Positions 2,383 to 25,789 of a stretch of 64,000 bases of DNA are shown here, in pieces. How positions within the stretch are numbered: the first letter of the stretch is position 1; each line of letters begins with the position of its first letter. Below the pieces are notes generated by a model, which was not told the DNA's origin, searched no databases, and was given only the letters and a program-made list of their open reading frames with translations. Source of the stretch: Escherichia phage SP22. The position numbers were made by a program, and so were the translations under genes. Location: the sequence record LC519489.1; one strand, 5' to 3'.

Positions 2383-2459
2383 CTCTGTTTAGCTCAGCTT
2401 GGTAGAGCGTTCCGTTTGGGGCGGTAAGGCCGGAGGTTCAAGTCCTCCAACAGAGACCA
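2383..2459 (+). tRNA. tRNA-Pro(TGG)
   Basis: Acceptor ctctgtt/aacagag, D-arm AGCTCAGCTTGGTAGAGC, anticodon loop TTTGGGG, T-loop TTCAAGT, CCA encoded. Confidence 0.7.
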
Positions 2460-2466
2460 AATTAAT

Positions 2467-2544
2467 GTTCCAGTAGACAAAATGGTAAAGTCACCACTCT
2501 TTCAAAGTGGATATTTGAGGGTTCAAATCCCTTCTGGAACGCCA
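2467..2544 (+). tRNA. tRNA-Glu(TTC)
   Basis: Acceptor gttccag/ctggaac, anticodon stem ccact/agtgg, loop CTTTCAA, T-loop TTCAAAT, CCA encoded. Confidence 0.7.
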
Positions 2545-2635
2545 GTTTTGACAGAAGACCAATTACAGCAAACTTAATCTTATTCATCTGAAGGTAAATC
2601 GGACAAAGAAGAGATTTGGTTTGGTCATTAAGAAT

Positions 2636-2712
2636 TGCGGGTATAGAGAAAGGGCGTCTCACATGTCTCATTAGCATGGTATCGGCAGGTTCGACTCCTG
2701 CACCCGCCTCCA
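2636..2712 (+). tRNA. tRNA-Met(CAT) type, with U1-C72 mismatch or extra nucleotide before the D-stem
   Basis: Anticodon stem catgt/gcatg, loop CTCATTA, D-stem gaga/tctc, T-arm gcagg-TTCGACT-cctgc, CCA encoded; acceptor register ambiguous. Confidence 0.6.
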
Positions 2713-2789
2713 ATTTTGCAGAAGACCGTATTCAGCAACAAAATACTTTTTGCGGATAAAAGAAAAAACACGGTCTGGCAATGTATTAA

Positions 2790-2866
2790 GGTTAGGAAGC
2801 ACATAAGGTATGTGCGGTCGCCTGTTAAGCGAATGGCACAGGGTTCGAATCCCTGACTAACCGCCA
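2790..2866 (+). tRNA. tRNA-Asn(GTT)
   Basis: Acceptor ggttagg/actaacc, anticodon loop CTGTTAA, T-arm caggg-TTCGAAT-ccctg, CCA encoded. Confidence 0.7.
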
Positions 2867-2935
2867 AATTTAGGAGAGAAGCGATTGCTCACCGATTTGT
2901 AAGGTGCAAGTCCTTAGCCTGAATAGAAATTAAAT

Positions 2936-3023
2936 GTGTCGTTATCCCGTAGATGGTAGCGGTGGGGACTGTAAATCCCTTGTCATTGAGACTCGGTAGG
3001 TTCGACTCCTACACGGCACACCA
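2936..3023 (+). tRNA. tRNA-Tyr(GTA), type II (long variable arm)
   Basis: Acceptor gtgtcgt/acggcac, anticodon stem gggga/tccct, loop CTGTAAA, about 15-nt variable arm, T-loop TTCGACT, CCA encoded. Confidence 0.65.
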
Positions 3024-3029
3024 AATAAA

Positions 3030-3106
3030 GGTTATGTAGTTTAACTGGTTAAAATACTCCCCTGTCACGGGAGATGATGAGGGTTCAAATCCCTTCGTAA
3101 CCGCCA
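3030..3106 (+). tRNA. tRNA-Asp(GTC)
   Basis: Acceptor ggttatg/cgtaacc, D-stem gttt/aaat, anticodon stem ctccc/gggag, loop CTGTCAC, T-loop TTCAAAT, CCA encoded. Confidence 0.75.
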
Positions 3107-3318
3107 AATTATAATAAGTATTTCAAAATGATGTTTTGAGAGGGCTATTTAGCCCCTCCCTTAAAGAGTTCTTACGAGTATTCTTTAAAGGAGCAGAAGA
3201 CCAAATTCAGCAAGTACGTATGAAATTTTCAAGCCAATTTAATTTTGAAAAAATTTAAAACTTGGTCTGGCTCAACAAATTTACAGAAGACCGTTTACAG
3301 CAAACTTTAAACAATCTA

Positions 3319-3392
3319 TTTCTCCGGTAAAGAAAAGGCGAAGGTTCGATTCCTTCACTCGGCAGATGTCGAGTTGGTGTAATGGTAGCACT
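3319..3392 (+). tRNA. Circularly permuted tRNA-Thr(GGT)-like locus: 3' portion (anticodon arm, T-arm, acceptor 3' strand; 3319-3364) lies upstream of 5' portion (acceptor 5' strand, D-arm; 3368-3392)
   Basis: Anticodon arm tttct-CCGGTAA-agaaa, T-arm gaagg-TTCGATT-ccttc, 3' strand actcggc, linker, 5' strand gtcgagt (7/7 pairs incl. one G-U), D-arm gtgt-AATGGTA-gcac; no partner halves in the conventional order nearby. Confidence 0.35.
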
Positions 3393-3564
3393 TAAGATGA
3401 TAAACAACGGTCTGGTAATTATCTTTGTAGATAAGTTATTAAGCTTACCTGTGAGTATGCGACCACAAAGGGTGAAATGGTAAATTCTAGATTTAAACCC
3501 AACAATGCACATCGCTACAGACCTTAAGCAAGTCTGGGTAGCTTATCTACAAAGATAATTTAAT

Positions 3565-3640
3565 GGAAGTGTAGCAGAATGGTGATGCGGCAGACTTTTA
3601 ATCTGACAGGCGATGGGTTCGAATCCCTCCACTTCTACCA
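3565..3640 (+). tRNA. tRNA-Lys(TTT)
   Basis: Acceptor ggaagtg/cacttct, anticodon loop CTTTTAA, T-loop TTCGAAT, CCA encoded; T-stem has a bulge (gatggg/ccctc), shared with the Lys(CTT) paralogue. Confidence 0.65.
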
Positions 3641-3644
3641 ATAT

Positions 3645-3721
3645 GGTTCAGTCGCAGATAAGGTAATGCAGGGGTTTCATAAGCCCTATGAATGTGGGTT
3701 CGATTCCCATCTGAACCTCCA
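3645..3721 (+). tRNA. tRNA-Met(CAT) type (elongator Met or Ile2 not distinguishable)
   Basis: Acceptor ggttcag/ctgaacc, anticodon stem ggggt/gccct, loop TTCATAA, T-arm gtggg-TTCGATT-cccat, CCA encoded. Confidence 0.7.
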
Positions 3722-3722
3722 A

Positions 3723-3798
3723 GCTGGTATAGTTAAGAAGGTTATAACACTCCCCTGATAAGGGAACATCGGTGGTTCGATTCCACCTACCAGTACCA
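3723..3798 (+). tRNA. tRNA-Ile(GAT)
   Basis: Acceptor gctggta/taccagt, D-stem gtta/taac, anticodon loop CTGATAA, T-arm ggtgg-TTCGATT-ccacc, CCA encoded. Confidence 0.75.
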
Positions 3799-3813
3799 AT
3801 TTCAATAAAGTTG

Positions 3814-3842
3814 TTGACATTGAGATGTGACTACTTTATAGT
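3814..3842 (+). promoter_or_regulatory. Sigma70-like promoter TTGACA-N17-TATAGT inside the tRNA array
   Basis: Hexamers and spacing read directly; followed by about 290 nt with no tRNA or ORF. Confidence 0.5.
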
Positions 3843-4136
3843 AACTGAAAATGATTCAGCATATGTATAATTCAAACACCAATACATGAGCGTTAGACGT
3901 AACACAATGTGGGGAAATTTGTTGTACATATTCTGAATAGTTTTCGTTGCGTAGCGTCTATTTTGCAAATTTAAAATAAATGCAAACGACAATGTTTTTC
4001 TGGCAGTAGCTTGATAGGCTAAACACCAGTGAGGTCTTCCAATCCCTCATCAAAGAATTTGGCGTACTCGCCCACGGTATGATTAATAAGGTGGGCATCT
4101 TTAAGGGCTTTCTAAGAGAGTCTTTAAAGATAATTA

Positions 4137-4218
4137 CGGGGCGTATCTCAGCGGTCTTCTAAACCGCCGTTAACCGAGTAAGTGGAGTATGCGGGTTCGA
4201 GTCCTGCCGCCTCGACCA
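4137..4218 (+). tRNA. Atypical tRNA-like gene, anticodon TCT (Arg), no recognisable D-arm and a 23-nt extra region; possible pseudo-tRNA
   Basis: Acceptor cggggcg/cgcctcg, perfect hairpin gcggt-CTTCTAA-accgc, T-arm gcggg-TTCGAGT-cctgc, CCA encoded; only 7 nt between acceptor and anticodon stem. Confidence 0.35.
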
Positions 4219-4232
4219 ATTTTGGAGAAATC

Positions 4233-4580
4233 ATGAAAACTTGTATTAGGTGCAAACTTAGCAAGGATGAAAATGATTTCTACATGAAAGATGGTAAGAG
4301 AACTCATTCATACTGTAAAAAGTGTGTTAATGAGCAAACCATAGAAAGACAAAGAGCACTTAAACTTTCAGCTATTGAGTACAAAGGTGGGGTTTGTCAT
4401 GATTGTGGTAAAAGGTATCATCCAGCAGTGTATGACTTCCATCATTTGAATCCTTCAGAGAAAGATTTTAACATTGGTCATAGAAAAAGTCTGAAGTTCT
4501 CTCAAGAACTAAAAGATGAACTTGACAAATGTGTTTTGCTATGTTCAAATTGCCATAGGGTAAGACATGCAAAGTATTAG
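4233..4580 (+). CDS. HNH homing endonuclease
   Basis: HNH motifs (YDFHHLNPSEKDFNIGH ... LLCSNCHRVRH); start placed at ATG after GGAG; upstream extension in the ORF track overlaps the tRNA-like gene. Confidence 0.7.
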   Translation: MKTCIRCKLSKDENDFYMKDGKRTHSYCKKCVNEQTIERQRALKLSAIEYKGGVCHDCGKRYHPAVYDFHHLNPSEKDFNIGHRKSLKFSQELKDELDKCVLLCSNCHRVRHAKY

Positions 4581-4717
4581 TTAGCAGATTGCTTAGACGA
4601 CCTTATCGGGTCTCCGTGTAAGGAGGTGGTCTGTATCTCATGTTTTCCAGAACATGTAAATAATCTGAGAAGGGGCTTTACAGTGTTGCGAAAATACGGT
4701 AAGCTTCGAATTACAAT

Positions 4718-4800
4718 ATGGGACGATGTTAAGACTCTAAGGCATGAGCAACGGCCTCCAAAACCGTTTCAAAGGGGTTCAACTCCTCCGTCCCATGCCA
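4718..4800 (+). tRNA. tRNA-Trp(CCA)-like with a 7-nt insertion between acceptor and D-arm
   Basis: Acceptor atgggac/gtcccat (7/7), D-arm ctc-TAAGGCAT-gag, anticodon loop CTCCAAA, T-loop TTCAACT, CCA encoded; would complete the 20-amino-acid set. Confidence 0.45.
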
Positions 4801-4813
4801 AAGTCTTATTAGG

Positions 4814-4901
4814 GGTAGGTAGCGGCTAATGGCAGCCAAACAGTCTTGAAAACTGTTGCCACTGTAGAGATACGGTGAGGGTTCGACTCCTTTACTTACC
4901 G
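4814..4901 (+). tRNA. tRNA-Ser(TGA), type II
   Basis: Acceptor ggtaggt/acttacc, D-arm ggc-TAATGGCA-gcc, anticodon stem acagt/actgt, loop CTTGAAA, long variable arm, T-loop TTCGACT; CCA not encoded. Confidence 0.65.
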
Positions 4902-5057
4902 CCTAATAAGATTTATACCGTCCATGCTTGCTCGCATTTTCGGTTTATCCTCGTGTATTGGTTGTACACACTGATAAAGCACCTAGTAGGTGTCACGGAG
5001 AAGAGATAATATCAAGCTCTCCAAAGGTTCTAGTCACCGGATTAAACAAGACTATGC

Positions 5058-5079
5058 AAAGACCAAATTAGGTCTTTTT
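5058..5079 (+). terminator. Weak rho-independent terminator-like hairpin (AAAGACC/GGTCTTT + T-run)
   Basis: Inverted repeat and T-tract read directly; AT-rich stem. Confidence 0.3.
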
Positions 5080-5171
5080 AGAGGGCTTCTAAGGTTATTA
5101 CAGCTTGTTGTGGAACCTTGTTGCTTAGGTTCTTAGAAGTTCTCTAAAAAGATTTAATGGGAGATTGACAC

Positions 5172-5624
5172 ATGGCACGTAGCAGTTTGACTAAAGATAT
5201 TCTTGAACCTTTAGTAAAGGATTCAGTATCATTCAGAGAAGTACTTATTAAGCTTGGGAGAAAACCAGCAGGTGGTTCTCAGTCACATCTAAAGCGTGTT
5301 ATAGAGAAGTTTGAAATAGACACTTCTCATTTCCTCGGACAAAAGGCTGGTAAGGTTAAAACTGTACCAAAAAGAAAGCCTGAAGAAATACTAATTCTGC
5401 GTGAATCTGGTGAAAGAGCTAGGTCTTCACAACTAAGAAGAGCTTTAATAGCCTCTGGTGTCGAATACAAATGCTCTAAATGTGGTCAGTTACCGTATTG
5501 GTTGGGTAACCCTCTAACTCTTGATGTTGACCACATTAACGAGAACTGGTTAGATGATAGAAAAGAGAATCTTCGGTTCTTGTGTCCAAATTGCCACAGT
5601 CAATTCTCAAGACATTTGATTTAA
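5172..5624 (+). CDS. HNH homing endonuclease
   Basis: HNH motif LDVDHINENWLDDRKENLRFLCPNCH; GGGAG RBS upstream. Confidence 0.7.
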   Translation: MARSSLTKDILEPLVKDSVSFREVLIKLGRKPAGGSQSHLKRVIEKFEIDTSHFLGQKAGKVKTVPKRKPEEILILRESGERARSSQLRRALIASGVEYKCSKCGQLPYWLGNPLTLDVDHINENWLDDRKENLRFLCPNCHSQFSRHLI

Positions 5625-5625
5625 T

Positions 5626-5702
5626 GCACCTATAGCCCAACTGGTAGAGGCAGCAGACTTAGAATCTGCTCAGTGTGAGTTCGAATCTCTCTAGGTGTAC
5701 CA
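5626..5702 (+). tRNA. tRNA-Leu(TAG) by anticodon, type I length (short variable arm)
   Basis: Acceptor gcaccta/taggtgt, anticodon stem gcaga/tctgc, loop CTTAGAA, 5-nt variable region, T-loop TTCGAAT, CCA encoded. Confidence 0.6.
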
Positions 5703-5709
5703 AATTAAT

Positions 5710-5785
5710 GCAGGTGTAGCAAAATGGTTATGCGGCTGACTCTTAATCAGTAAGACGATGGGTTCAATTCCCTCCACCTGTACCA
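5710..5785 (+). tRNA. tRNA-Lys(CTT)
   Basis: Acceptor gcaggtg/cacctgt, anticodon stem ctga/tcag, loop CTCTTAA, T-loop TTCAATT, CCA encoded. Confidence 0.65.
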
Positions 5786-5791
5786 AACATT

Positions 5792-5867
5792 GGGGATGTA
5801 GTTTACATGGTTAAAACATAAGTTTTGCAAACTTAAGTACAGGGTTCAATTCCCTGCTTCTCCACCA
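5792..5867 (+). tRNA. tRNA-Ala(TGC)
   Basis: G3-U70 wobble pair present (Ala identity element), D-stem gttt/aaac, anticodon stem taagt/actta, loop TTTGCAA, T-arm caggg-TTCAATT-ccctg, CCA encoded. Confidence 0.75.
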
Positions 5868-5873
5868 ATTAGT

Positions 5874-5948
5874 GCATCCATAGTTTAAACGGGAAAATTA
5901 CAGTCTTCCAAACTGAGGTTGAGGGTTCGATTCCCTCTGGATGCTCCA
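5874..5948 (+). tRNA. tRNA-Gly(TCC)
   Basis: Acceptor gcatcca/tggatgc, anticodon loop CTTCCAA, T-arm gaggg-TTCGATT-ccctc, CCA encoded. Confidence 0.75.
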
Positions 5949-5962
5949 AATTAAGGTGTGAT

Positions 5963-6376
5963 ATGAAAATATGTAGTACTTGCAGAATACCAAAAGATGA
6001 AAGCTTATTCCATAAGAATAAGAACAAGAAAGATGGTCTTCAAAGTCAATGCAAAGACTGTGCAAGACTTCGTGATGCAAAGAGTTATCAAGCAAATGAT
6101 AAAAGGAAAGAGGCTATCAAAAGCACTCGTAACTTCAAGAGGGAGTATAATAAAACTCTAGCTAGAAGGTACAAAGCTTTATGCAAATGTCATATATGTG
6201 GTGAGAAAGAACCAGCTGCACTGGATTTACACCATACAGACCCTTCCCAGAAAGATTTGAATCCTGCATCACTTTATTCATACTCCACAAAAAGATTAAA
6301 AGATGAAATCAGAAAGTGTATCGTCTTGTGTGCTAACTGTCACAGAAAAGTACACGCTGGTATCATACAAGTTTAA
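5963..6376 (+). CDS. HNH homing endonuclease
   Basis: HNH motifs LDLHHTDPSQKDLNPA ... VLCANCHRKVH; Cys-rich N-terminus. Confidence 0.7.
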   Translation: MKICSTCRIPKDESLFHKNKNKKDGLQSQCKDCARLRDAKSYQANDKRKEAIKSTRNFKREYNKTLARRYKALCKCHICGEKEPAALDLHHTDPSQKDLNPASLYSYSTKRLKDEIRKCIVLCANCHRKVHAGIIQV

Positions 6377-6377
6377 T

Positions 6378-6454
6378 GCTGCTTTCGTATAATTGGCTAT
6401 TACACATCCCTTGTAAGGATGGAAATGCAGGTTCGAGTCCTGTGAGCAGCACCA
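6378..6454 (+). tRNA. tRNA-Thr(TGT)
   Basis: Acceptor gctgctt/gagcagc, anticodon stem catcc/ggatg, loop CTTGTAA, T-arm gcagg-TTCGAGT-cctgt, CCA encoded. Confidence 0.75.
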
Positions 6455-6550
6455 ATTTAGAGGTCAAGTGAAAGACCGCTTTGAGTCAACTGAAGACCGT
6501 AACAAATCCCACGGAGTTGAGTTAGCGGCACAACTTCAGACCTCTTTCAT

Positions 6551-6625
6551 ACTCGCTTAGTTTATATGGTAAAACATCACCCTTACAAGATGAAGAAAAA
6601 GGTTCAAGTCCTTTAGTGAGTACCA
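6551..6625 (+). tRNA. tRNA-Val(TAC)
   Basis: Acceptor actcgct/agtgagt, D-arm gttt-ATATGGTA-aaac, anticodon loop CTTACAA, T-arm aaagg-TTCAAGT-ccttt, CCA encoded. Confidence 0.7.
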
Positions 6626-6626
6626 T

Positions 6627-6704
6627 GTTCCAGTATCCCAATTGGCAGAGGATGCAAGCTCAAACCTTGTACTAGTGACGGTTCGAATCCGTCTTGGAAC
6701 ACCA
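6627..6704 (+). tRNA. tRNA-Leu(CAA) by anticodon, short variable arm
   Basis: Acceptor gttccag/ttggaac, anticodon stem gcaag/cttgt, loop CTCAAAC, 6-nt variable region, T-arm gacgg-TTCGAAT-ccgtc, CCA encoded. Confidence 0.6.
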
Positions 6705-6709
6705 ATTTT

Positions 6710-6785
6710 GCAGGATTAGTTCAAATGGATAGAGCAACAGTCTACGAAGCTGTTAATAGGGGTTCGAATCCCTTATCCTGCGCCA
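6710..6785 (+). tRNA. tRNA-Arg(ACG)
   Basis: Acceptor gcaggat/atcctgc, D-arm gttc-AAATGGATA-gagc, anticodon loop CTACGAA, T-loop TTCGAAT, CCA encoded. Confidence 0.75.
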
Positions 6786-6804
6786 ATTTAAAGAGGCTAT
6801 TTAG

Positions 6805-7362
6805 ATGAGATATTTGAAGTATGCTTCATGGATTTTCTTAGCTTTGTTAGAACCATTTGCAGCAATCTTAGCAGTTATCTTAGCACCTTTCGTAGTCCCA
6901 TTCTACAGTGAGAAGAAAGGACACTTACCTTTCGGCTTCAGATGGATGGAGACATATGACAACCCAATTGATGGTGATAAAGGGCATGTCGAACGATGGG
7001 CTAAGATTAGAAAGATTGGCAAGCTTGGTGTCTATATGCAGAGAGTCGGTTGGCTCTGGAGAAACAAAGCTTATAACTTCTCTTACCATGTGTTAGGAAG
7101 AGATGTAAAAGATGTTACTAAGTGGAAAGGCAATATCAACGTAAGTTCTAACCCTGAAGATAATCAGACAGGTTATCTCCTAATGTGGAACAGCAATGCT
7201 TGGGGATTATTCGCTTTTATCCCATCAATTAAAGTCTTTGGTAAACAATTTTACTGGAGAATTTATATTGGGTGGAAGCTAAAAAGTGTTGTCCCAGAAG
7301 AAAGAGCATTCTCAAGGGAAAGAGTTATGTTGGCATTCTTTATTCATCCACTAAGAAAGTAA
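6805..7362 (+). CDS. Hypothetical membrane protein (N-terminal hydrophobic segment, Trp-rich)
   Basis: ORF track; AGAGG RBS upstream; no motif recognised. Confidence 0.5.
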   Translation: MRYLKYASWIFLALLEPFAAILAVILAPFVVPFYSEKKGHLPFGFRWMETYDNPIDGDKGHVERWAKIRKIGKLGVYMQRVGWLWRNKAYNFSYHVLGRDVKDVTKWKGNINVSSNPEDNQTGYLLMWNSNAWGLFAFIPSIKVFGKQFYWRIYIGWKLKSVVPEERAFSRERVMLAFFIHPLRK

Positions 7363-7370
7363 AGATTTAA

Positions 7371-7446
7371 AGGGGATTAGTTTACAAGGTTAAAACCTCG
7401 GTCTTTGAAATCGAAGAAGTTGGTTCAATTCCAACATCCCCCGCCA
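7371..7446 (+). tRNA. tRNA-Gln(TTG)
   Basis: Acceptor aggggat/atccccc with unpaired A1-C72 (weak 1-72 pair is typical of tRNA-Gln), anticodon loop CTTTGAA, T-arm gttgg-TTCAATT-ccaac, CCA encoded. Confidence 0.7.
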
Positions 7447-7448
7447 AT

Positions 7449-7527
7449 GCTCCATTACTCCAATTGGCAGAGAGGCCAGACTTAAAATCTGTGTTATGTA
7501 TCGGTTCGAATCCGATATGGAGTACCA
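7449..7527 (+). tRNA. tRNA-Leu(TAA) by anticodon, short variable arm
   Basis: Acceptor gctccat/atggagt, anticodon stem caga/tctg, loop CTTAAAA, about 8-nt variable region, T-arm atcgg-TTCGAAT-ccgat, CCA encoded. Confidence 0.6.
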
Positions 7528-7532
7528 AATTT

Positions 7533-7608
7533 AGCGGTATAGCATAACTGGCAATGCAGCAGTCTCTGAAGCTGTCTTATTAAGGTTCAAATCCTTATGC
7601 CGCTGCCA
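7533..7608 (+). tRNA. tRNA-Gln(CTG)
   Basis: Acceptor agcggta/tgccgct (A1-U72), anticodon loop CTCTGAA, T-arm taagg-TTCAAAT-cctta, CCA encoded. Confidence 0.7.
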
Positions 7609-7639
7609 CTTCTAAGGGTTCTTACGAGAGTCCTTAAAT

Positions 7640-7715
7640 GTGGCCTTATCATAAATGGTAATGACCCATGCTGTGAACATGGTCTATACGGGTTCAAATC
7701 CCGTAGGTCACCCCA
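7640..7715 (+). tRNA. tRNA-His(GTG)
   Basis: Acceptor gtggcct/aggtcac, D-arm tcat-AAATGGTA-atga, anticodon stem ccatg/catgg, loop CTGTGAA, T-arm acggg-TTCAAAT-cccgt, CCA encoded; no G at -1. Confidence 0.75.
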
Positions 7716-7720
7716 ATTTA

Positions 7721-7797
7721 TAGTCCAAGTAGCTTATATGGTTAAAGCGCGTGTCTGAAAAACATGAGAAGAGGGTTCAAATCCCACTGGACTACCA
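7721..7797 (+). tRNA. tRNA-Phe(GAA)
   Basis: Acceptor tagtcca/tggacta, D-arm gctt-ATATGGTTA-aagc, anticodon stem cgtgt/acatg, loop CTGAAAA, T-loop TTCAAAT; two extra nt at the acceptor/D junction. Confidence 0.65.
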
Positions 7798-7813
7798 ATT
7801 TCAAAGGTGCTTA

Positions 7814-8548
7814 ATGAAAGAGATGACAGAACAAGGTAAGGAGATTTTTAATCTCTTAAAAACCGGTAAAGGGTTTTCTAATCCCCTTATTACTGGTGCA
7901 GCAGTTCTCGGTGGAACCGTAGCTGCCTCTACATCACTTGTAAGCTCTATTAGCTCTGTAACAGACCCTACAATAAAAGATAAGCTTGTTGCTGCTGGAC
8001 TTACAACAGTCCTGCTTAACAGCTTTACAACGAGTCTGACAAGCACTACATCAACTACCAAAACACTGACAGATTACGGTCAAAAATCTATTGATGAGTT
8101 TTCATCACGTATGCAGGTAGCAAAAGGCTATTCTAATGTTATGGGTGCAGCAGGAGAGCAGGTTGGTTGTACACCATTTAGTGGTATTATGGGTGTTGCT
8201 ACAGAGTATGGTCAAAAAGCTATTGACACGATTAACAGTGCACTAGATGGTGTTAATGATGTATTAAGTGACTTACAAGATGCTATTGACAAAGGTCTTG
8301 ATACTATTTCTGATTTAGCTAACCAAGCTGTTAGTAAGATTAATGAAGGTATTTCGAAGATTACAGCTTATGCAGATGAAGTTGTGCAGATGATTGAAGA
8401 AGAAGCTGCTCTTATTGCAGAGTACCTTAAAACGAATATCAATGGGTTCTTAGCAGGTATCTTACCAGACTGGTTTGATGATGCTTGTAAAACTGGTGTA
8501 ATTGATACTATTGCAACACCAGAAATGAAGAACGCATTACAGAAATAA
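7814..8548 (+). CDS. Hypothetical protein (Ser/Thr-rich N-terminal region)
   Basis: ORF track entry 7751-8548 overlaps tRNA-Phe; start moved to ATG after AAGGTG. Confidence 0.5.
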   Translation: MKEMTEQGKEIFNLLKTGKGFSNPLITGAAVLGGTVAASTSLVSSISSVTDPTIKDKLVAAGLTTVLLNSFTTSLTSTTSTTKTLTDYGQKSIDEFSSRMQVAKGYSNVMGAAGEQVGCTPFSGIMGVATEYGQKAIDTINSALDGVNDVLSDLQDAIDKGLDTISDLANQAVSKINEGISKITAYADEVVQMIEEEAALIAEYLKTNINGFLAGILPDWFDDACKTGVIDTIATPEMKNALQK

Positions 8549-8549
8549 T

Positions 8550-8642
8550 GGAAGATTAACCCTAAAAGGTAAGGGAGCAGTTTGCTAAACTGCCAGTAGC
8601 TGAGAAATCGGTGTACCAGTTCAAGTCTGGTATCTTCCTCCA
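8550..8642 (+). tRNA. tRNA-Ser(GCT), type II
   Basis: Acceptor ggaagat/atcttcc, D-stem ccc/ggg, anticodon stem gcagt/actgc, loop TTGCTAA, long variable arm, T-arm accag-TTCAAGT-ctggt, CCA encoded. Confidence 0.7.
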
Positions 8643-8646
8643 ATTT

Positions 8647-8722
8647 GAATCCGTGACAGAAATGGTTATGTGCCTGTCTGCAAAACAGGTTTATAAGGGT
8701 TCGAGTCCCTTCGGATTCTCCA
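8647..8722 (+). tRNA. tRNA-Cys(GCA)
   Basis: Acceptor gaatccg/cggattc, anticodon stem cctgt/acagg, loop CTGCAAA, T-arm aaggg-TTCGAGT-ccctt, CCA encoded. Confidence 0.75.
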
Positions 8723-17324: not shown

Positions 17325-17898
17325 AAAAGGTCTAGTTAGAACCTTAGTGGATGTTATTGGTCACAGACTAGCTCGTGATAAAAATAATAGACCAAATGTA
17401 ATTAGAGCTTACCCTTCTGATAACTCAAATGACAAAGGTTTAAAACCTGACCAGCCATTTATTACCGTATATTGTCAAGATGCTGCAACACCTTATGGTT
17501 GGGTTCTTGATAAGTTTGTTGAGGATGATGTAGTTTGCTATAGAATTGCTTTTCAAATTCCAGTATTAATTACGGTAAATGGTAAAGGTGCTCACAGTAT
17601 TATGCTTGAGCTTAAACAACGATTAGAGATGAGTTCAGTCAGAGATTTAATTCTTGAAGAGACAGGAGCTACAGTTTTAGACACTGGAGCTATCCCAAAT
17701 GACTACACTTATCTTAATACAGATTTCGAAAATTCTGCACCTCTTGTTGTAACTCTTGTAAAAAATTCAGTCCTGAAAGATGAACGTGGAAGTATTATTG
17801 AGCGTGTCATTGTTGATGGTGAATTAGTTTACGAAGAAGGACAAGAGCCACCAGAATATACTATCCATCTAGATGTAGACTCCAAAGGGGTAAAATAA
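17299..17898 (+). CDS. Hypothetical tail-completion protein
   Basis: ORF track; position. Confidence 0.4.
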   Translation: MQLETAELEKGLVRTLVDVIGHRLARDKNNRPNVIRAYPSDNSNDKGLKPDQPFITVYCQDAATPYGWVLDKFVEDDVVCYRIAFQIPVLITVNGKGAHSIMLELKQRLEMSSVRDLILEETGATVLDTGAIPNDYTYLNTDFENSAPLVVTLVKNSVLKDERGSIIERVIVDGELVYEEGQEPPEYTIHLDVDSKGVK

Positions 17899-19251
17899 AT
17901 GTGGAATCCAATTGTTAATGTAGATATTACATTGAACACCGCAGGAACTACAAGAGAAGGTTTTGGGCTGCCACTATTTTTAGCTTCAACAGATAACTTT
18001 GAAGAAAGAGTCCGTGGTTACACTTCCTTAACTGAAGTTGCTGAAGATTTCGATGAAAATTCTGCTGCATATAAGGCTGCTAAACAACTTTGGAGTCAGA
18101 CTCCTAAAGTAACTCAGCTTTATATTGGTAGACGTGCTATGCAGTACACTGTATCAATTCCTGATGAGGTTACTGAGAGCACCGATTATTCTTTAACTGT
18201 AGCTGTGGGCGGTGGAGTTTCTCAGCCATTCCAGTATACAGCACAGACATCAGATACCGCTGAGAAGGTGTTGCAGCAGCTTAAAACACAAATTGAAGCA
18301 GAACCTTCTGTAAAAGACCTTGTTACTGTCAATGTAACTGGTTCTGGTGGTTCAGCAACAATGGTAATCACCAAAGCTGGTGTCAACGACTTCGTGAAGG
18401 TTACTACTACAGCACAAACAGTGTCAATTGCAAGTACAACTGCTGACACAGCATCGACTGCTCTGGCAGCTATTGAAGCGTATTCAACTGACTGGTATTT
18501 CATTGCAGCAGAAGACAGAACTCAACAGTTTGTCTTAGCAATGGCTTCTGAGATTCAAGCTCGTAAGAAGATTTTCTTTACAGCTAACTCCGATGTAGCA
18601 GCACTGCAAGGTACAGAATTAGCCAGTGCAAATGATGTTCCAGCACAACTTGCTAAGAATAAGTACACTCGCACAGTTTGCTTGTGGCATCACACAGCAG
18701 CAGAAGACTATCCAGAAATGGCATACATCGCTTATGGTGCTCCATATGATGCAGGTTCAATTGCTTGGGGTAACGCACAGCTAACTGGCGTAGCTGCTTC
18801 TCTACAGCCATCTAATCAGAGACCTCTGACAAGTATTCAGAAGTCAGCTTTAGATGCACGTCACTGTAACTTTATTGACCTTGATGGTGGTGTTCCAGTG
18901 GTTCGTAGAGGGATTACTTCTGGTGGGGAATGGATTGATATCATCCGTGGTGTTGACTGGTTAGAATCAGACCTGAAAACTTCTCTGAGAGACTTGCTAA
19001 TTAACCAGAAGGGTGGTAAGATTACTTATGATGATACTGGTATTACCCGTATTCGTCAAGTCATTGAAACCTCTCTGCAAAGAGCAGTCAACAGAAACTT
19101 CCTGTCATCTTACACAGTTAATGTTCCTAAAGCCTCTCAAGTTGCTTTGGCAGACAAGAAAGCTCGTATCCTGAAAGATGTTACCTTCGCAGGTATCTTA
19201 GCAGGGGCTATCTTGGATGTTGACTTGAAAGGTACAGTGGCTTACGAATAA
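17899..19251 (+). CDS. Tail sheath protein (putative)
   Basis: 450 aa immediately upstream of a tube-sized ORF, chaperone pair and tape measure (myovirus order). Confidence 0.55.
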   Translation: MWNPIVNVDITLNTAGTTREGFGLPLFLASTDNFEERVRGYTSLTEVAEDFDENSAAYKAAKQLWSQTPKVTQLYIGRRAMQYTVSIPDEVTESTDYSLTVAVGGGVSQPFQYTAQTSDTAEKVLQQLKTQIEAEPSVKDLVTVNVTGSGGSATMVITKAGVNDFVKVTTTAQTVSIASTTADTASTALAAIEAYSTDWYFIAAEDRTQQFVLAMASEIQARKKIFFTANSDVAALQGTELASANDVPAQLAKNKYTRTVCLWHHTAAEDYPEMAYIAYGAPYDAGSIAWGNAQLTGVAASLQPSNQRPLTSIQKSALDARHCNFIDLDGGVPVVRRGITSGGEWIDIIRGVDWLESDLKTSLRDLLINQKGGKITYDDTGITRIRQVIETSLQRAVNRNFLSSYTVNVPKASQVALADKKARILKDVTFAGILAGAILDVDLKGTVAYE

Positions 19252-19266
19252 TAGAGGTAAATTGGA

Positions 19267-19713
19267 ATGGCTATGTATCAGCAATATTCCCCTAAAGACG
19301 TTGTGTGTAGCTGGAATGGTATTGCCATTGAAGGCTTTGCCCCAGACTCATTCTTACGTCTACAGAGAACATCACCACTTGTGACACCAGTTGTAGGTGC
19401 AGGTGGTCAGGTTGCTCTGACAAGAAATGCAGACAAGACAGGTACTATTGAGATTGAGCTAATGCAGACTTCTCTCTCTAATCAGATGCTTTCTGCAATT
19501 CAAGCTAAACAAGACAATATGGAACTTGAAGAAGATATCTCTTCTAACTTCGTAATCTACGACCCATCAGGCTCTGTTCTGGCAACTGGTATTAATGCTT
19601 GGTTGCAGGAATTACCACAGATTGAACTTGGTCGTGACCAGAACTCTAAAACTTGGATTTTTGGTTGTGAGAAGCTAGACTATACTTCTACAATTCCAGC
19701 GTCAAGTGTTTAA
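19267..19713 (+). CDS. Tail tube protein (putative)
   Basis: 148 aa after sheath gene; strong terminator downstream. Confidence 0.5.
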   Translation: MAMYQQYSPKDVVCSWNGIAIEGFAPDSFLRLQRTSPLVTPVVGAGGQVALTRNADKTGTIEIELMQTSLSNQMLSAIQAKQDNMELEEDISSNFVIYDPSGSVLATGINAWLQELPQIELGRDQNSKTWIFGCEKLDYTSTIPASSV

Positions 19714-19725
19714 TAAATCCTATAA

Positions 19726-19757
19726 GGGGGAGACTTTAAAAGGTCTTCCCCTTTTTT
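19726..19757 (+). terminator. Rho-independent terminator after tube gene
   Basis: GGGGGAGAC / GTCTTCCCC stem followed by T6. Confidence 0.6.
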
Positions 19758-19785
19758 GTTTCTTTTAAAGTATTAAGGAATCACA

Positions 19786-20184
19786 ATGAAAACAGAATCT
19801 AGAGTAATTAATGGTAAGAAAGTAAATATCGTTCTGCTTGGGGCAAGAGATGGTATTAAGATGTCTATGAAGTTGGGTAAAATTGTTGTTCCAACATTTG
19901 CACAGATGCTGTCAAGCCTGACTGATAAAGATAAGAAAGAAGCTCCAATGGTTCCATTTAAAGAACTTGTTGAAGCTTGTTTTGACAGAATTGAAGAAAT
20001 TAACCTTGAAGAAATGGCTACCATGTTATTTCAAGGGGCAACTGTTGATGACTTCCCACTTAATATTGATACATACTTCCAAGCAAACTACGGTGAATTT
20101 ATTGATTACTTAGCATTTGCGCTGGAGGCAAACTTCGGAAGTTTTTTCGAAGCAAGCATTTTCAAAAGCCTAACTTCTCAGTAA
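19786..20184 (+). CDS. Tail assembly chaperone (G-like)
   Basis: Upstream of tape measure; slippery heptamer T_TTT_TTC at 20142-20148 near 3' end. Confidence 0.5.
   Translation: MKTESRVINGKKVNIVLLGARDGIKMSMKLGKIVVPTFAQMLSSLTDKDKKEAPMVPFKELVEACFDRIEEINLEEMATMLFQGATVDDFPLNIDTYFQANYGEFIDYLAFALEANFGSFFEASIFKSLTSQ
20142..20148 (+). promoter_or_regulatory. Candidate -1 programmed frameshift site (T TTT TTC) joining 19786-20184 to 20187-20426
   Basis: Heptamer in X_XXY_YYZ register of the upstream ORF; -1 frame open from here into the downstream ORF. Confidence 0.45.
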
Positions 20185-20186
20185 AC

Positions 20187-20425
20187 ATGGGTAACACTCT
20201 ACAGACACCACTAACTGATGCTGCTGTAGAGGCAACCTATGAAGAAGCAGACGAGATGAAATTTGTGCTTGCTATTTATGGTATGGAAGGGTGTAAAGAA
20301 ACACTTGACCAACTCTTTGCTATGACATTCTCTGATTTATTATCATTGAGACAATTTCTTGAAATTCAGAGGTCGTATAAAGAGGAAATTGCTTACAACG
20401 AACTTAGAAGAGCAGGAAAAATGTA

Positions 20426-20426
<1 letters not shown>
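20187..20426 (+). CDS. Tail assembly chaperone extension (GT-like, likely expressed by frameshift)
   Basis: Frame is -1 relative to 19786 ORF; immediately precedes tape measure. Confidence 0.45.

Positions 20427-25789
<5,363 letters not shown>

What the first reader, a model, noticed from the sequence alone, without database searches (positions are those of the whole stretch)
19786..20426. Candidate -1 programmed frameshift joining two tail chaperone ORFs
The slippery heptamer T_TTT_TTC at 20142-20148 lies in the correct codon register near the end of the 19786-20184 ORF. The -1 frame is open from that site through the 20187-20426 ORF, which is in the -1 frame and immediately precedes the tape measure gene. 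This matches the conserved G/GT chaperone frameshift of tailed phages.
Basis: partly seen in the sequence, partly recalled or inferred. Interest (0 to 1): 0.45.

Follow-up and report, generated by a model that had tools for sequence, protein, structure and literature searches.

The report
Tail chaperone -1 frameshift, Felix O1-like phage
The window comes from a Felix O1-like phage, and the flagged site is the standard "slippery" signal that lets a few ribosomes slip back one base to make a longer tail-assembly chaperone; it looks real and strongly conserved, but it is ordinary and was already predicted for this phage family.

Summary

- **What the window is.** It is a Felixounavirus (95-97% identical to Shigella phage Tf and others).
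- **Gene layout.** ORF1 (19786-20184) is a Pfam PF21822 tail assembly chaperone. It lies between the tail tube gene and the tape measure gene.
- **The slip site.** T_TTT_TTC (20142-20148) sits in the correct codon register. The -1 frame is open from there to a stop at 20424-20426, which overlaps the tape measure ATG. The predicted products are 132 aa (short form) and 213 aa (fusion).
- **Conservation.** All 93 homologous loci examined (25 lineages, as low as about 25% protein identity) keep T_TTT_TTY in register. All have a 76-124 codon -1 extension that ends near the tape measure start. Most lineages have no usable start codon for the downstream ORF.
- **Local signals.** Synonymous variation collapses exactly at the site. 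The ORF2 ATG has no ribosome-binding site. An SD-like GGAGG lies 13 nt upstream of the heptamer, and its GAGG core is kept in 20 of 25 lineages. There is no downstream RNA structure.
- **Prior knowledge.** GenBank already annotates this frameshift in Mooglevirus phages. Genome announcements from 2015-2017 and a 2025 paper covering Andersonviridae describe it.
- **What is missing.** No experiment has tested it, and transcriptional slippage on the T6 run is not formally excluded.

The parts
17899..19251 (+). Tail sheath gene (context)
   Evidence: phrog_205 tail sheath, E = 2e-125; PF11863
19267..19713 (+). Tail tube gene (context; upstream boundary of the chaperone locus)
   Evidence: PF11681 KPP10_Orf10 and phrog_280. 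It sits directly after the sheath gene.
19786..20184 (+). ORF1: short tail assembly chaperone (G-like, TAC-N), 132 aa, 14.9 kDa. This is the 0-frame product.
   Evidence: PF21822 Phage_TAC_15, E = 1.1e-19, 71.7 bits against a cut-off of 22; phrog_1613, E = 2.6e-49. Its own SD scores -6.1 kcal/mol. Size.
20124..20128 (+). Internal Shine-Dalgarno-like GGAGG, with 13 nt between it and the heptamer. Candidate 5' stimulator of the frameshift (inferred).
   Evidence: Anti-SD duplex of -9.3 kcal/mol, stronger than any real ribosome-binding site of the 11 genes tested and beyond the 1st percentile of the background. The GAG codon that creates GAGG is present in 20 of 25 lineages against 9.6 expected from codon usage, P = 1.3e-5. 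It meets the published criterion of GAGG/GGAG 6-17 nt before the motif (PMC4066793).
20142..20148 (+). Slippery heptamer T_TTT_TTC (0-frame codons AGT|TTT|TTC)
   Evidence: Register verified. T_TTT_TTY is present in 93 of 93 homologous loci across 25 lineages. U_UU.U_UU.C is listed among the shift-prone heptamers in E. coli (PMC4066793).
20148..20184 (+). Dual-coding overlap. The 0 frame reads EASIFKSLTSQ* and the -1 frame reads RSKHFQKPNFSV.
   Evidence: Synonymous codon identity peaks at 0.87-0.94 here, against about 0.3-0.65 in most of ORF1. Window 20131-20171 is the only stretch that still matches Erwinia Kolesnikvirus phages by blastn. A basic linker in the -1 frame is conserved across lineages.
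20148..20426 (+). -1 frame extension (T-like, TAC-C domain), 92 codons plus the stop at 20424-20426. The fusion CDS is join(19786..20148,20148..20426), 213 aa, 24.3 kDa.
   Evidence: Open frame. phrog_4963, E = 4.8e-55. The C-terminal domain is conserved in 25 lineages. Size.
20187..20426 (+). ORF2 as usually annotated (79 aa, from an internal ATG). Most likely not a separate gene but the 3' part of the fusion CDS.
   Evidence: No SD complementarity (+0.7 kcal/mol). Relatives have no start codon at the equivalent position.
20426..22633 (+). Tape measure protein gene. Its ATG overlaps the stop of the -1 frame (TAATG).
   Evidence: PF20155 TMP_3; phrog_4036, E = 0. Sequence read.

Best explanation
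This is the programmed -1 ribosomal frameshift of the tail assembly chaperone gene of a Felix O1-like myophage.

- **Short product.** Most ribosomes translate ORF1 to its stop at 20182-20184 and make the 132-aa short chaperone.
- **Long product.** A minority slip back one base while the two tRNA-Phe molecules sit on UUU-UUC in U_UUU_UUC (20142-20148). They re-pair on UUU-UUU and continue in the -1 frame from CGA at 20148 to the stop at 20424-20426. This gives a 213-aa fusion with the junction ...ANFGSFF|RSKHFQK...
- **Stimulator.** Slippage is probably helped by pairing between 16S rRNA and the internal GGAGG at 20124-20128. No 3' RNA structure is involved.
- **Function, by analogy with lambda G/GT and P2 E/E+E'.** The shared N-terminal part coats the tape measure protein. 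The rare C-terminal extension recruits the tail tube subunit. The fixed short-to-long ratio is what the frameshift sets.

Shown here: the sequence anatomy, protein family membership, deep conservation of the heptamer and the -1 frame, the synonymous constraint, and the lack of a ribosome-binding site for ORF2. Inferred: that the slip is ribosomal, its efficiency, the role of the SD-like element, and the roles of the two proteins.
For: - **Anatomy.** Coordinates, register and the open -1 frame are verified.
- **Gene identity and order.** Sheath, tube, chaperone and tape measure are identified.
- **Uniqueness in the window.** Only 1 of 56 in-register heptamers has a long -1 frame.
- **Conservation in named phages.** All 8 distinct named phage groups retrieved by BLAST, independently of the motif, have T_TTT_TTC in register with the -1 frame running to the tape measure start. 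These are Felixounavirus, Mooglevirus, Suspvirus, Kolesnikvirus, Yersinia phage P778, Pectobacterium phage Wc4, Certrevirus and Avunavirus.
- **Conservation in metagenomes.** Eighty further IMG/VR loci show the same pattern. In total there are 93 loci in 25 lineages, with codons AGT/TCT/TGT + TTT + TTY, -1 extensions of 76-124 aa and a mostly short +1 frame.
- **The -1 frame is translated.** The extension peptides share a basic linker immediately after the slip and a conserved C-terminal domain. In most lineages the first possible start codon lies inside that domain (Kolesnikvirus).
- **Synonymous constraint.** It peaks at the site.
- **No separate initiation.** ORF2 has no SD.
- **Heptamer competence.** U_UUU_UUY is shift-prone in E. 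coli (PMC4066793), and P2 uses the near-identical TTTTTTG without any 3' structure (PMC3091744).
- **Independent prediction by others.** GenBank joins in Mijalis and Mordin; PMC4319497, PMC4591319, PMC5543628; PMC12846349 for Andersonviridae (taxonomy).
Against: - There is no experimental evidence for the fusion protein in any Felix O1-like phage in the literature searched.
- There is no 3' stimulatory structure in this lineage (z = +0.97), so efficiency may be low.
- Sequence alone cannot separate ribosomal slippage from RNA polymerase slippage on T6, because both give the same protein.
- The 80 IMG/VR loci were retrieved with a peptide pattern that required [SC]FF. Relatives that had lost the Phe-Phe would have been missed. 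Only the codon-level conservation and the BLAST-retrieved loci are free of this bias.
- The lineages are not phylogenetically independent, so the P values are optimistic.
- The ATG at 20187 lies 2 nt after the ORF1 stop, so some separate ORF2 product made by reinitiation cannot be excluded.
Confidence: 0.87

Rival explanations
1. Transcriptional slippage. RNA polymerase stutters on the T6 run (20142-20147) and adds one U to a fraction of transcripts. Ordinary translation of those transcripts then gives the same 213-aa fusion.
For: - The site is a homopolymer run, 6 nt here and up to 7-8 nt in some lineages.
- In this lineage a weak hairpin at 20122-20138 followed by the T-run was flagged as terminator-like. 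That resembles hairpin-assisted slippage cassettes (own knowledge).
- A DNA variant with T7 (phage CL1) encodes exactly the fused protein.
- The protein outcome cannot be told apart from that of -1 frameshifting.
Against: - Bacterial transcriptional slippage is described for runs of about 9 A or T (PMC5009743). T6 is short.
- Of the 25 lineage representatives, 18 end the run at 6 with a C, although TTT and TTC are used about equally. This shows no selection for a longer run.
- The upstream hairpin is not conserved across lineages (mean z = -0.34).
- The conserved feature upstream is the SD-like GAGG, which acts on ribosomes.
- The run always sits in exact X_XXY_YYZ register.
Confidence: 0.07
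2. Two separate genes with no recoding. ORF2 is translated on its own from ATG 20187, for example by termination-reinitiation 2 nt after the ORF1 stop, and the heptamer is an incidental Phe-Phe.
For: - An ATG exists at 20187, 2 nt after the TAA at 20182-20184.
- Most Felixounavirus GenBank records annotate two separate CDSs.
- Mooglevirus has an SD-like GGAAGG upstream of its ATG.
Against: - There is no anti-SD complementarity before 20187 (+0.7 kcal/mol, against -5.1 to -8.7 for neighbouring genes).
- In Kolesnikvirus, Yersinia phage P778 and most metagenomic lineages, the homologous and conserved -1 region has no ATG/GTG/TTG for 14-71 codons.
- The peptide encoded by the -1 frame upstream of the ATG (the basic linker) is conserved.
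- The NNT-TTT codon choice is invariant where synonymous alternatives exist.
- Synonymous suppression begins at the heptamer, not at the ATG.
Confidence: 0.04
3. Chance arrangement, or a sequencing indel in a homopolymer. On this view the true gene is a single in-frame 213-aa ORF, as in phage CL1.
For: Homopolymers are prone to indels, and the CL1 record has T7 and one fused CDS.
Against: - T6 and the two-frame layout are seen in hundreds of independently sequenced genomes.
- A scan of IMG/VR found no T7 variant.
- None of the 92 database homologues covers more than 61% of the fusion, so there are no natural in-frame fusions among them.
- Chance is excluded.
Confidence: 0.02

Closest known systems
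Tail assembly (tape measure) chaperone frameshift already annotated in Felix O1-like phages and relatives: Mooglevirus (Moogle, Michonne, Mordin, Mijalis) and the TAC-N/TAC-NC analysis of Vandenendeviridae and Andersonviridae
   Same: - Homologous genes (75% protein identity to Mijalis) and an identical slip region, GGAAGTTTTTTCGA.
- The same join is annotated in GenBank.
- The frameshift is stated in PMC4319497, PMC4591319 and PMC5543628.
- PMC12846349 reports the conserved GTTTTT motif at the 3' end of TAC-N in 231 Andersonviridae, the family that contains Felixounavirus.
   Different: Only the genus differs. Most Felixounavirus records, including Felix O1 RefSeq, still list two separate CDSs. 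The SD-like upstream element and the absence of a ribosome-binding site for ORF2 are not mentioned in the passages read.
Phage P2 E / E+E' (myovirus; -1 frameshift at TTTTTTG, shown experimentally)
   Same: - A contractile-tail phage with the locus between the tube and tape measure genes.
- A T-rich heptamer, T_TTT_TTG, against T_TTT_TTC here.
- No downstream RNA structure.
- A short product and an extended product from one start codon (PMC3091744, citing Christie 2002 and Xu 2004).
   Different: No detectable sequence similarity was sought or found. P2 E is 91 aa and E+E' is 142 aa, against 132 and 213 aa here. The P2 frameshift is verified and essential (about 10% efficiency, from own knowledge of Christie et al. 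2002); here it is only predicted.
Phage lambda G / GT (the paradigm; Levin 1993; Xu, Hendrix and Duda 2004, 2013, 2014)
   Same: - Two overlapping ORFs immediately upstream of the tape measure gene.
[quoted passage not shown]
- The G part binds the tape measure protein and the T part binds the tail tube subunit; neither is present in virions (PMC5009743).
   Different: Lambda is a siphovirus with a different slippery heptamer (G_GGA_AAG, own knowledge) and a different protein family. The functional roles are transferred here by analogy only.
E. coli dnaX and IS3/IS911-type -1 frameshift cassettes with a 5' Shine-Dalgarno stimulator
   Same: An SD-like sequence lies within the experimentally stimulatory interval upstream of an X_XXY_YYZ heptamer (criteria in PMC4066793; PMC5009743). 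Here it is GGAGG, with 13 nt between it and the heptamer.
   Different: dnaX also has a strong 3' hairpin and about 50% efficiency. No 3' structure is found here. Five of the 25 lineages lack the SD-like core. The stimulatory effect is untested.

Membership tests
G/GT-type tail assembly chaperone programmed frameshift (Xu, Hendrix and Duda 2004) | Two same-strand ORFs located between the major tail (tube) gene and the tape measure gene | tested here: met
   Tube 19267-19713, ORF1 19786-20184, ORF2 20187-20426, tape measure 20426-22633
G/GT-type tail assembly chaperone programmed frameshift (Xu, Hendrix and Duda 2004) | The downstream ORF is in the -1 (or +1) frame and is open back across the 3' end of the upstream ORF | tested here: met
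   The -1 frame is open from 20106 to 20423, with the stop at 20424-20426
G/GT-type tail assembly chaperone programmed frameshift (Xu, Hendrix and Duda 2004) | A slippery sequence in the correct 0-frame register inside the overlap | tested here: met
   T_TTT_TTC at 20142-20148, codons AGT|TTT|TTC. The heptamer is shift-prone in E. coli.
G/GT-type tail assembly chaperone programmed frameshift (Xu, Hendrix and Duda 2004) | The slip site and the two-frame layout are conserved among divergent relatives | tested here: met
   93 of 93 loci in 25 lineages. Synonymous constraint is seen at the site.
G/GT-type tail assembly chaperone programmed frameshift (Xu, Hendrix and Duda 2004) | The downstream ORF lacks its own translation initiation signals | tested here: met
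   An ATG is present at 20187 but has no SD (+0.7 kcal/mol). Most relatives have no start codon there. Reinitiation is not excluded.
G/GT-type tail assembly chaperone programmed frameshift (Xu, Hendrix and Duda 2004) | The fusion protein is actually made, at a low fixed ratio to the short form | not testable with these tools
   Needs a western blot, mass spectrometry or a reporter assay. No report was found for Felix O1-like phages.
G/GT-type tail assembly chaperone programmed frameshift (Xu, Hendrix and Duda 2004) | Both products are required for tail assembly and absent from virions; the N part binds the tape measure protein and the C part binds the tube protein | not testable with these tools
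   Transferred from lambda (PMC5009743)
Pfam PF21822 Phage_TAC_15 (tail assembly chaperone) | Whole-protein score above the Pfam gathering threshold | tested here: met
   71.7 bits against a cut-off of 22, E = 1.1e-19, covering residues 9-124 and profile positions 1-124 of 127. All 92 database homologues carry PF21822.
Solved tail assembly chaperone folds (for example XkdN/YqbN-type) | Significant structural similarity of the predicted ORF1 fold to a solved chaperone structure | tested here: inconclusive
   [not shown]
SD-stimulated -1 frameshift cassettes (dnaX / IS type) | [quoted passage not shown] | tested here: met
   GGAGG at 20124-20128. The motif is present in 20 of 25 lineages at 14-15 nt, with GAG codon bias P = 1.3e-5. 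Criterion taken from PMC4066793. The stimulatory effect itself was not tested.
Frameshift cassettes with a 3' stimulatory hairpin or pseudoknot | A stable structure starting 4-10 nt after the heptamer | tested here: not met
   The 52 nt downstream fold at -3.4 kcal/mol, z = +0.97. Across the 25 lineages structure is inconsistent (6 of 25 with z below -1.64). The nearest stable hairpin in the window starts about 50 nt downstream.
Bacterial transcriptional slippage sites | A homopolymer run of about 9 or more A or T (or a shorter run with a conserved upstream hairpin) | tested here: not met
   The run is T6. The upstream hairpin is weak and not conserved. The run-length criterion comes from PMC5009743.

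The most novel reading that the evidence does not exclude
The whole PF21822 chaperone clade (Andersonviridae, Vequintavirinae and many uncultured myophages) may share one ancient, minimal frameshift cassette. It would consist of an invariant T_TTT_TTY plus an internal Shine-Dalgarno-like GAGG held at synonymous positions 14-15 nt upstream, with no 3' RNA structure. In that case rRNA-mRNA pairing, rather than mRNA folding, would set the short-to-long chaperone ratio. The phage's own tRNA-Phe(GAA), at 7722-7797, might tune it further.
Probability: 0.35. Interest if true: 0.3.

Novelty: already known. Interest (0 to 1): 0.13.

Why it matters
The main value is for annotation. Most Felixounavirus GenBank and RefSeq records, including Felix O1 itself, list two separate "tail assembly chaperone" genes. 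The evidence says the second is the 3' part of a frameshifted fusion, join(19786..20148,20148..20426) in window coordinates.

Felix O1-like phages are widely used for Salmonella typing and biocontrol, and more recently for cell-free synthesis. A correct chaperone ratio matters for anyone who recodes or refactors their tail genes. Synonymous recoding of AGT-TTT-TTC, or of the upstream GAG-G, would be expected to break tail assembly.

Biologically this is one more instance of a well-known and very widespread mechanism, so it does not open a new question.

Tried and rejected
- **Downstream stimulatory structure.** I folded 20149-20200 and 20142-20240 and the 55 nt downstream of the heptamer in all 25 lineages. 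There is nothing at the right spacing in this lineage and nothing conserved. The hairpin at about 20198-20230 is roughly 50 nt away, and its 3' arm is a conserved protein motif.
- **Upstream hairpin plus T-run as a terminator or slippage cassette.** Rejected as a general feature because it is not conserved.
- **T7 variant as a natural in-frame form.** It was found only in the CL1 record. It is absent from IMG/VR, and no fused homologues appear among the 92 database hits. It is probably a homopolymer error.
- **Literature on rV5-type phages.** Searching rV5 with frameshift, tape measure and chaperone gave no hits. The Bas63 cryo-EM paper does not discuss the chaperone, and PMC6669636 is irrelevant.
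- **Vladimirov et al. 2022.** The paper is not held. I know it only from how other papers describe it.
- **C-terminal extension.** I did not predict its structure. That would have needed another whole-database search for little gain.
Full report
**1. Observation**

The region was read directly.
- ORF1 is 19786-20184 (ATG to TAA, 132 aa). ORF2 is 20187-20426 (79 aa).
- ORF1 codons begin at positions 3n+1, so 20140-20148 reads AGT|TTT|TTC. The heptamer T_TTT_TTC (20142-20148) is therefore in exact X_XXY_YYZ register at codons 120-121 of 132.
- After a -1 slip the next codon is CGA at 20148. That frame reads RSKHFQKPNFSVN-MGNTLQ... and has no stop until TAA at 20424-20426.
- The stop overlaps the ATG of the next gene (TAATG).

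**2. Source and gene identities**

- The window is a Felixounavirus. Window 17800-22700 is 95-97% identical over its full length to Shigella phage Tf, Escherichia phage PHB11 and more than 100 others.
- Profile searches identify 17899-19251 as the tail sheath (phrog_205) and 19267-19713 as the tube protein (PF11681, phrog_280).
- ORF1 is a tail assembly chaperone (PF21822 Phage_TAC_15, 71.7 bits against a cut-off of 22; phrog_1613).
- The -1 extension matches phrog_4963.
- 20426-22633 is the tape measure protein (PF20155; phrog_4036, E = 0).
- The order is the canonical tube, chaperone, -1 ORF, tape measure arrangement.

**3. Chance**

The window's ORFs of at least 100 aa contain 56 in-register X_XXY_YYZ heptamers. 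Only this one has a -1 frame open for more than 26 codons (it has 92), and only this one reads past the 0-frame stop.

**4. Comparative evidence**

*Loci fetched from GenBank by blastn or tblastn (independent of any motif).* These cover Mooglevirus (Mijalis, Mordin), Suspvirus SUSP2, Kolesnikvirus (Roscha1, SE5), Yersinia phage P778, Pectobacterium phage Wc4, and the Vequintavirinae phages PBES 02 and Av-05 (26-28% identity to ORF1).
- All carry T_TTT_TTC in register near the end of the chaperone ORF.
- In all of them the -1 frame is open for 92-124 codons.
- That frame ends within a few bases of the tape measure start, or within 52-65 nt in Vequintavirinae.

*Eighty further IMG/VR loci.* Together with the GenBank loci these give 93 loci in 25 clusters at 60% identity.
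- Every locus has NNT-TTT-TTY. The codon sets are AGT TTT TTC (72), TCT TTT TTC (12), AGT TTT TTT (5), TGT TTT TTC (2) and TCT TTT TTT (2).
- Every locus has a -1 extension of 76-124 aa, while the +1 frame is mostly short.
- Caveat: the IMG/VR scan used the peptide pattern E[AVK]N[FY][GKS][SC]FF. Conservation of Phe-Phe in those 80 loci is therefore partly by construction, but the codon choice is not.
- From each locus's own codon usage, the probability that all 25 lineages use a T-ending Ser/Cys codon followed by TTT is about 1e-20, assuming independent lineages.

**5. The -1 frame is translated from the heptamer onward**

- Aligned -1 extension peptides share a basic linker immediately after the slip (RSKHFQK here; RxxRYW-like elsewhere).
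- They also share a conserved C-terminal domain (W[ST][LF]DD...A..LD[MA]).
- In most lineages the first ATG/GTG/TTG in that frame lies 20-70 codons in, inside the conserved domain.
- In Kolesnikvirus the first possible start is codon 55, and annotators left the region as an intergenic gap.
- In the window the ATG at 20187 has no anti-Shine-Dalgarno complementarity (+0.7 kcal/mol). The 10 neighbouring tail genes score -5.1 to -8.7.

**6. Synonymous constraint**

- Between Felixounavirus and the Erwinia Kolesnikvirus phages (about 40% protein identity), the only stretch blastn still aligns is window 20131-20171. It is 92.7% identical and covers the heptamer plus the dual-coding overlap.
- In a codon alignment of eight Ounavirinae, codon identity among amino-acid-identical pairs is about 0.3-0.65 over most of ORF1. 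It rises to 0.87-0.94 over GSFFEASIFKS.
- This is what is expected where two frames are both translated, where a recoding signal is present, or both.

**7. Stimulators**

- There is no stable structure at the classical spacing. The 52 nt after the heptamer fold at -3.4 kcal/mol, z = +0.97.
- Across the 25 lineages downstream folding is heterogeneous. Six have z below -1.64, some with good hairpins 5-7 nt downstream, but not this lineage.
- Upstream, GGAGG at 20124-20128 lies with 13 nt between it and the heptamer.
  - Its anti-SD duplex of -9.3 kcal/mol is stronger than any genuine ribosome-binding site in the tail module and beyond the 1st percentile of the window background.
  - It arises from Leu-Glu-Ala codons CTG GAG GCA.
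  - The Glu codon is GAG, giving GAGG, in 20 of 25 lineages against 9.6 expected from local codon usage (P = 1.3e-5, independence assumed).
  - The motif meets the published criterion for stimulatory SD-like elements, 6-17 nt before the motif (PMC4066793). Such 5' stimulators are established for dnaX and many IS elements (PMC5009743).
  - Its role here is inferred, not shown. Five lineages lack it.

**8. Heptamer competence**

- In E. coli, U_UU.U_UU.C and U_UU.U_UU.U are among the heptamers that give more than 0.1% frameshifting without stimulators. H_HH.U_UU.Y is among the most efficient classes when a stimulator is present (PMC4066793).
- Myophage P2 uses TTTTTTG for its verified E/E+E' frameshift, also without 3' structure (PMC3091744).

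**9. Mechanism proposed**

- Most ribosomes terminate at 20182-20184 and give the 132-aa, 14.9-kDa chaperone.
- A minority slip -1 on U_UUU_UUC, with both tRNA-Phe molecules re-pairing on UUU. They give a 213-aa, 24.3-kDa fusion with the junction ...ANFGSFF|RSKHFQK....
- By analogy with lambda G/GT (PMC5009743), the shared N domain coats the tape measure protein and the rare C domain recruits the tube protein.
- These functional roles are inferred from the paradigm and were not tested.

**10. Rivals**

- *Transcriptional slippage on T6* would give the same protein and cannot be excluded from sequence. Against it: the run is short compared with the roughly 9 nt typical of bacteria, 18 of 25 lineage representatives end the run with C at length 6, the upstream hairpin flagged is not conserved, and the conserved upstream element acts on ribosomes.
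- *Independent translation of ORF2* is contradicted by sections 5 and 6, although minor reinitiation is possible.
- *A sequencing indel or single in-frame gene* is contradicted by hundreds of independent T6 genomes, by the absence of T7 in IMG/VR, and by the absence of fused homologues among 92 database proteins. The one T7 record (phage CL1) is probably a homopolymer error.

**11. What is already known**

- GenBank records of Citrobacter phages Mijalis and Mordin annotate the two-piece join at the identical sequence.
- A 2025 paper on Pseudomonas phage Adele shows the conserved -1 frameshift with an invariant GTTTTT motif in Vandenendeviridae. It reports the same motif in 231 Andersonviridae (PMC12846349), the family that contains Felixounavirus.
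- Most Felixounavirus records, including Felix O1 RefSeq, still list two separate CDSs.
- I found no experimental demonstration for this family.

**12. Structure**

- An AlphaFold2 model of ORF1 (20-sequence alignment, pLDDT 77, pTM 0.71) has a beta-hairpin followed by helices.
- Foldseek against the PDB found nothing significant.
- Fold-level membership in a solved chaperone family is therefore inconclusive. Family membership rests on the Pfam and PHROG profiles.

**13. Verdict**

The feature belongs to a well-known class and has already been predicted for this phage family. The modest additions here are:
- the demonstration across 25 lineages, at synonymous sites;
- the absence of a ribosome-binding site for ORF2;
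- the absence of a 3' structure;
- a conserved SD-like element upstream of the heptamer.

Noticed in passing
window 19724-19763: A strong intrinsic-terminator-like hairpin (13 bp stem, AAGGGGGAGACTTTAAAAGGTCTTCCCCTT, followed by TTTTGTTTCT) lies between the tube gene and the chaperone gene. Homologous sites are annotated as 'terminator' in Mijalis, Mordin and AYO145A. It would lower transcription of the chaperone and tape measure genes relative to sheath and tube.
   Followed up: partly
window 20424-20428: The stop of the -1 frame and the tape measure ATG overlap as TAATG. The tape measure gene also has its own SD (-5.1 kcal/mol). Ribosomes finishing the fusion could couple into the tape measure gene.
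   Followed up: no
L095 (OK040806.1, Escherichia phage CL1), locus 167-808: This Felixounavirus record has T7 instead of T6 at the slip site, so the chaperone is annotated as one in-frame 213-aa CDS identical in layout to the predicted fusion. It is probably a homopolymer sequencing error. No T7 variant was found in IMG/VR.
   Followed up: partly
window 2383-8722: A cluster of 25 tRNA genes. It includes tRNA-Phe(GAA) at 7722-7797, which decodes both slip-site codons. It also includes tRNA-Arg(ACG) at 6710-6785 and tRNA-Glu(UUC) at 2467-2544, which decode the first -1 codon (CGA) and the first 0-frame codon (GAA) after the slip.
   Followed up: no
window 20198-20230: An 8-bp hairpin (CUCUACAG...CUGUAGAG) lies inside ORF2, about 50 nt downstream of the heptamer. 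The 99-nt fold has z = -2.09. It is too far away for a classical stimulator, and its 3' arm encodes a conserved AAVE motif. It is only partly conserved in Mooglevirus and absent in Kolesnikvirus.
   Followed up: partly
GU169904.1 (Staphylococcus phage SA1), 72373-77280: A 147-kb record labelled as a Staphylococcus phage contains this Felix O1-type tail region at 94.8% identity over the full 4.9-kb query. This suggests a chimeric or contaminated assembly.
   Followed up: no
L003 (LR597663.1, Escherichia phage VpaE1_ev78): Product names in this record do not match the genes. The sheath is labelled 'Ad1 adapter', the chaperone 'Hc1 head closure' and the tape measure 'Tail sheath protein'. These look like misassigned names (the same 'Hc1' label appears).
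   Followed up: no
L001 (OR980947.1, Shigella phage Tf), locus 2889-3146: In the closest relative the -1 ORF is 6 codons longer (98 against 92 extension codons) and overlaps the tape measure gene by 20 nt. The position of the stop is therefore not strictly fixed.
   Followed up: no
[not shown]
   Followed up: no
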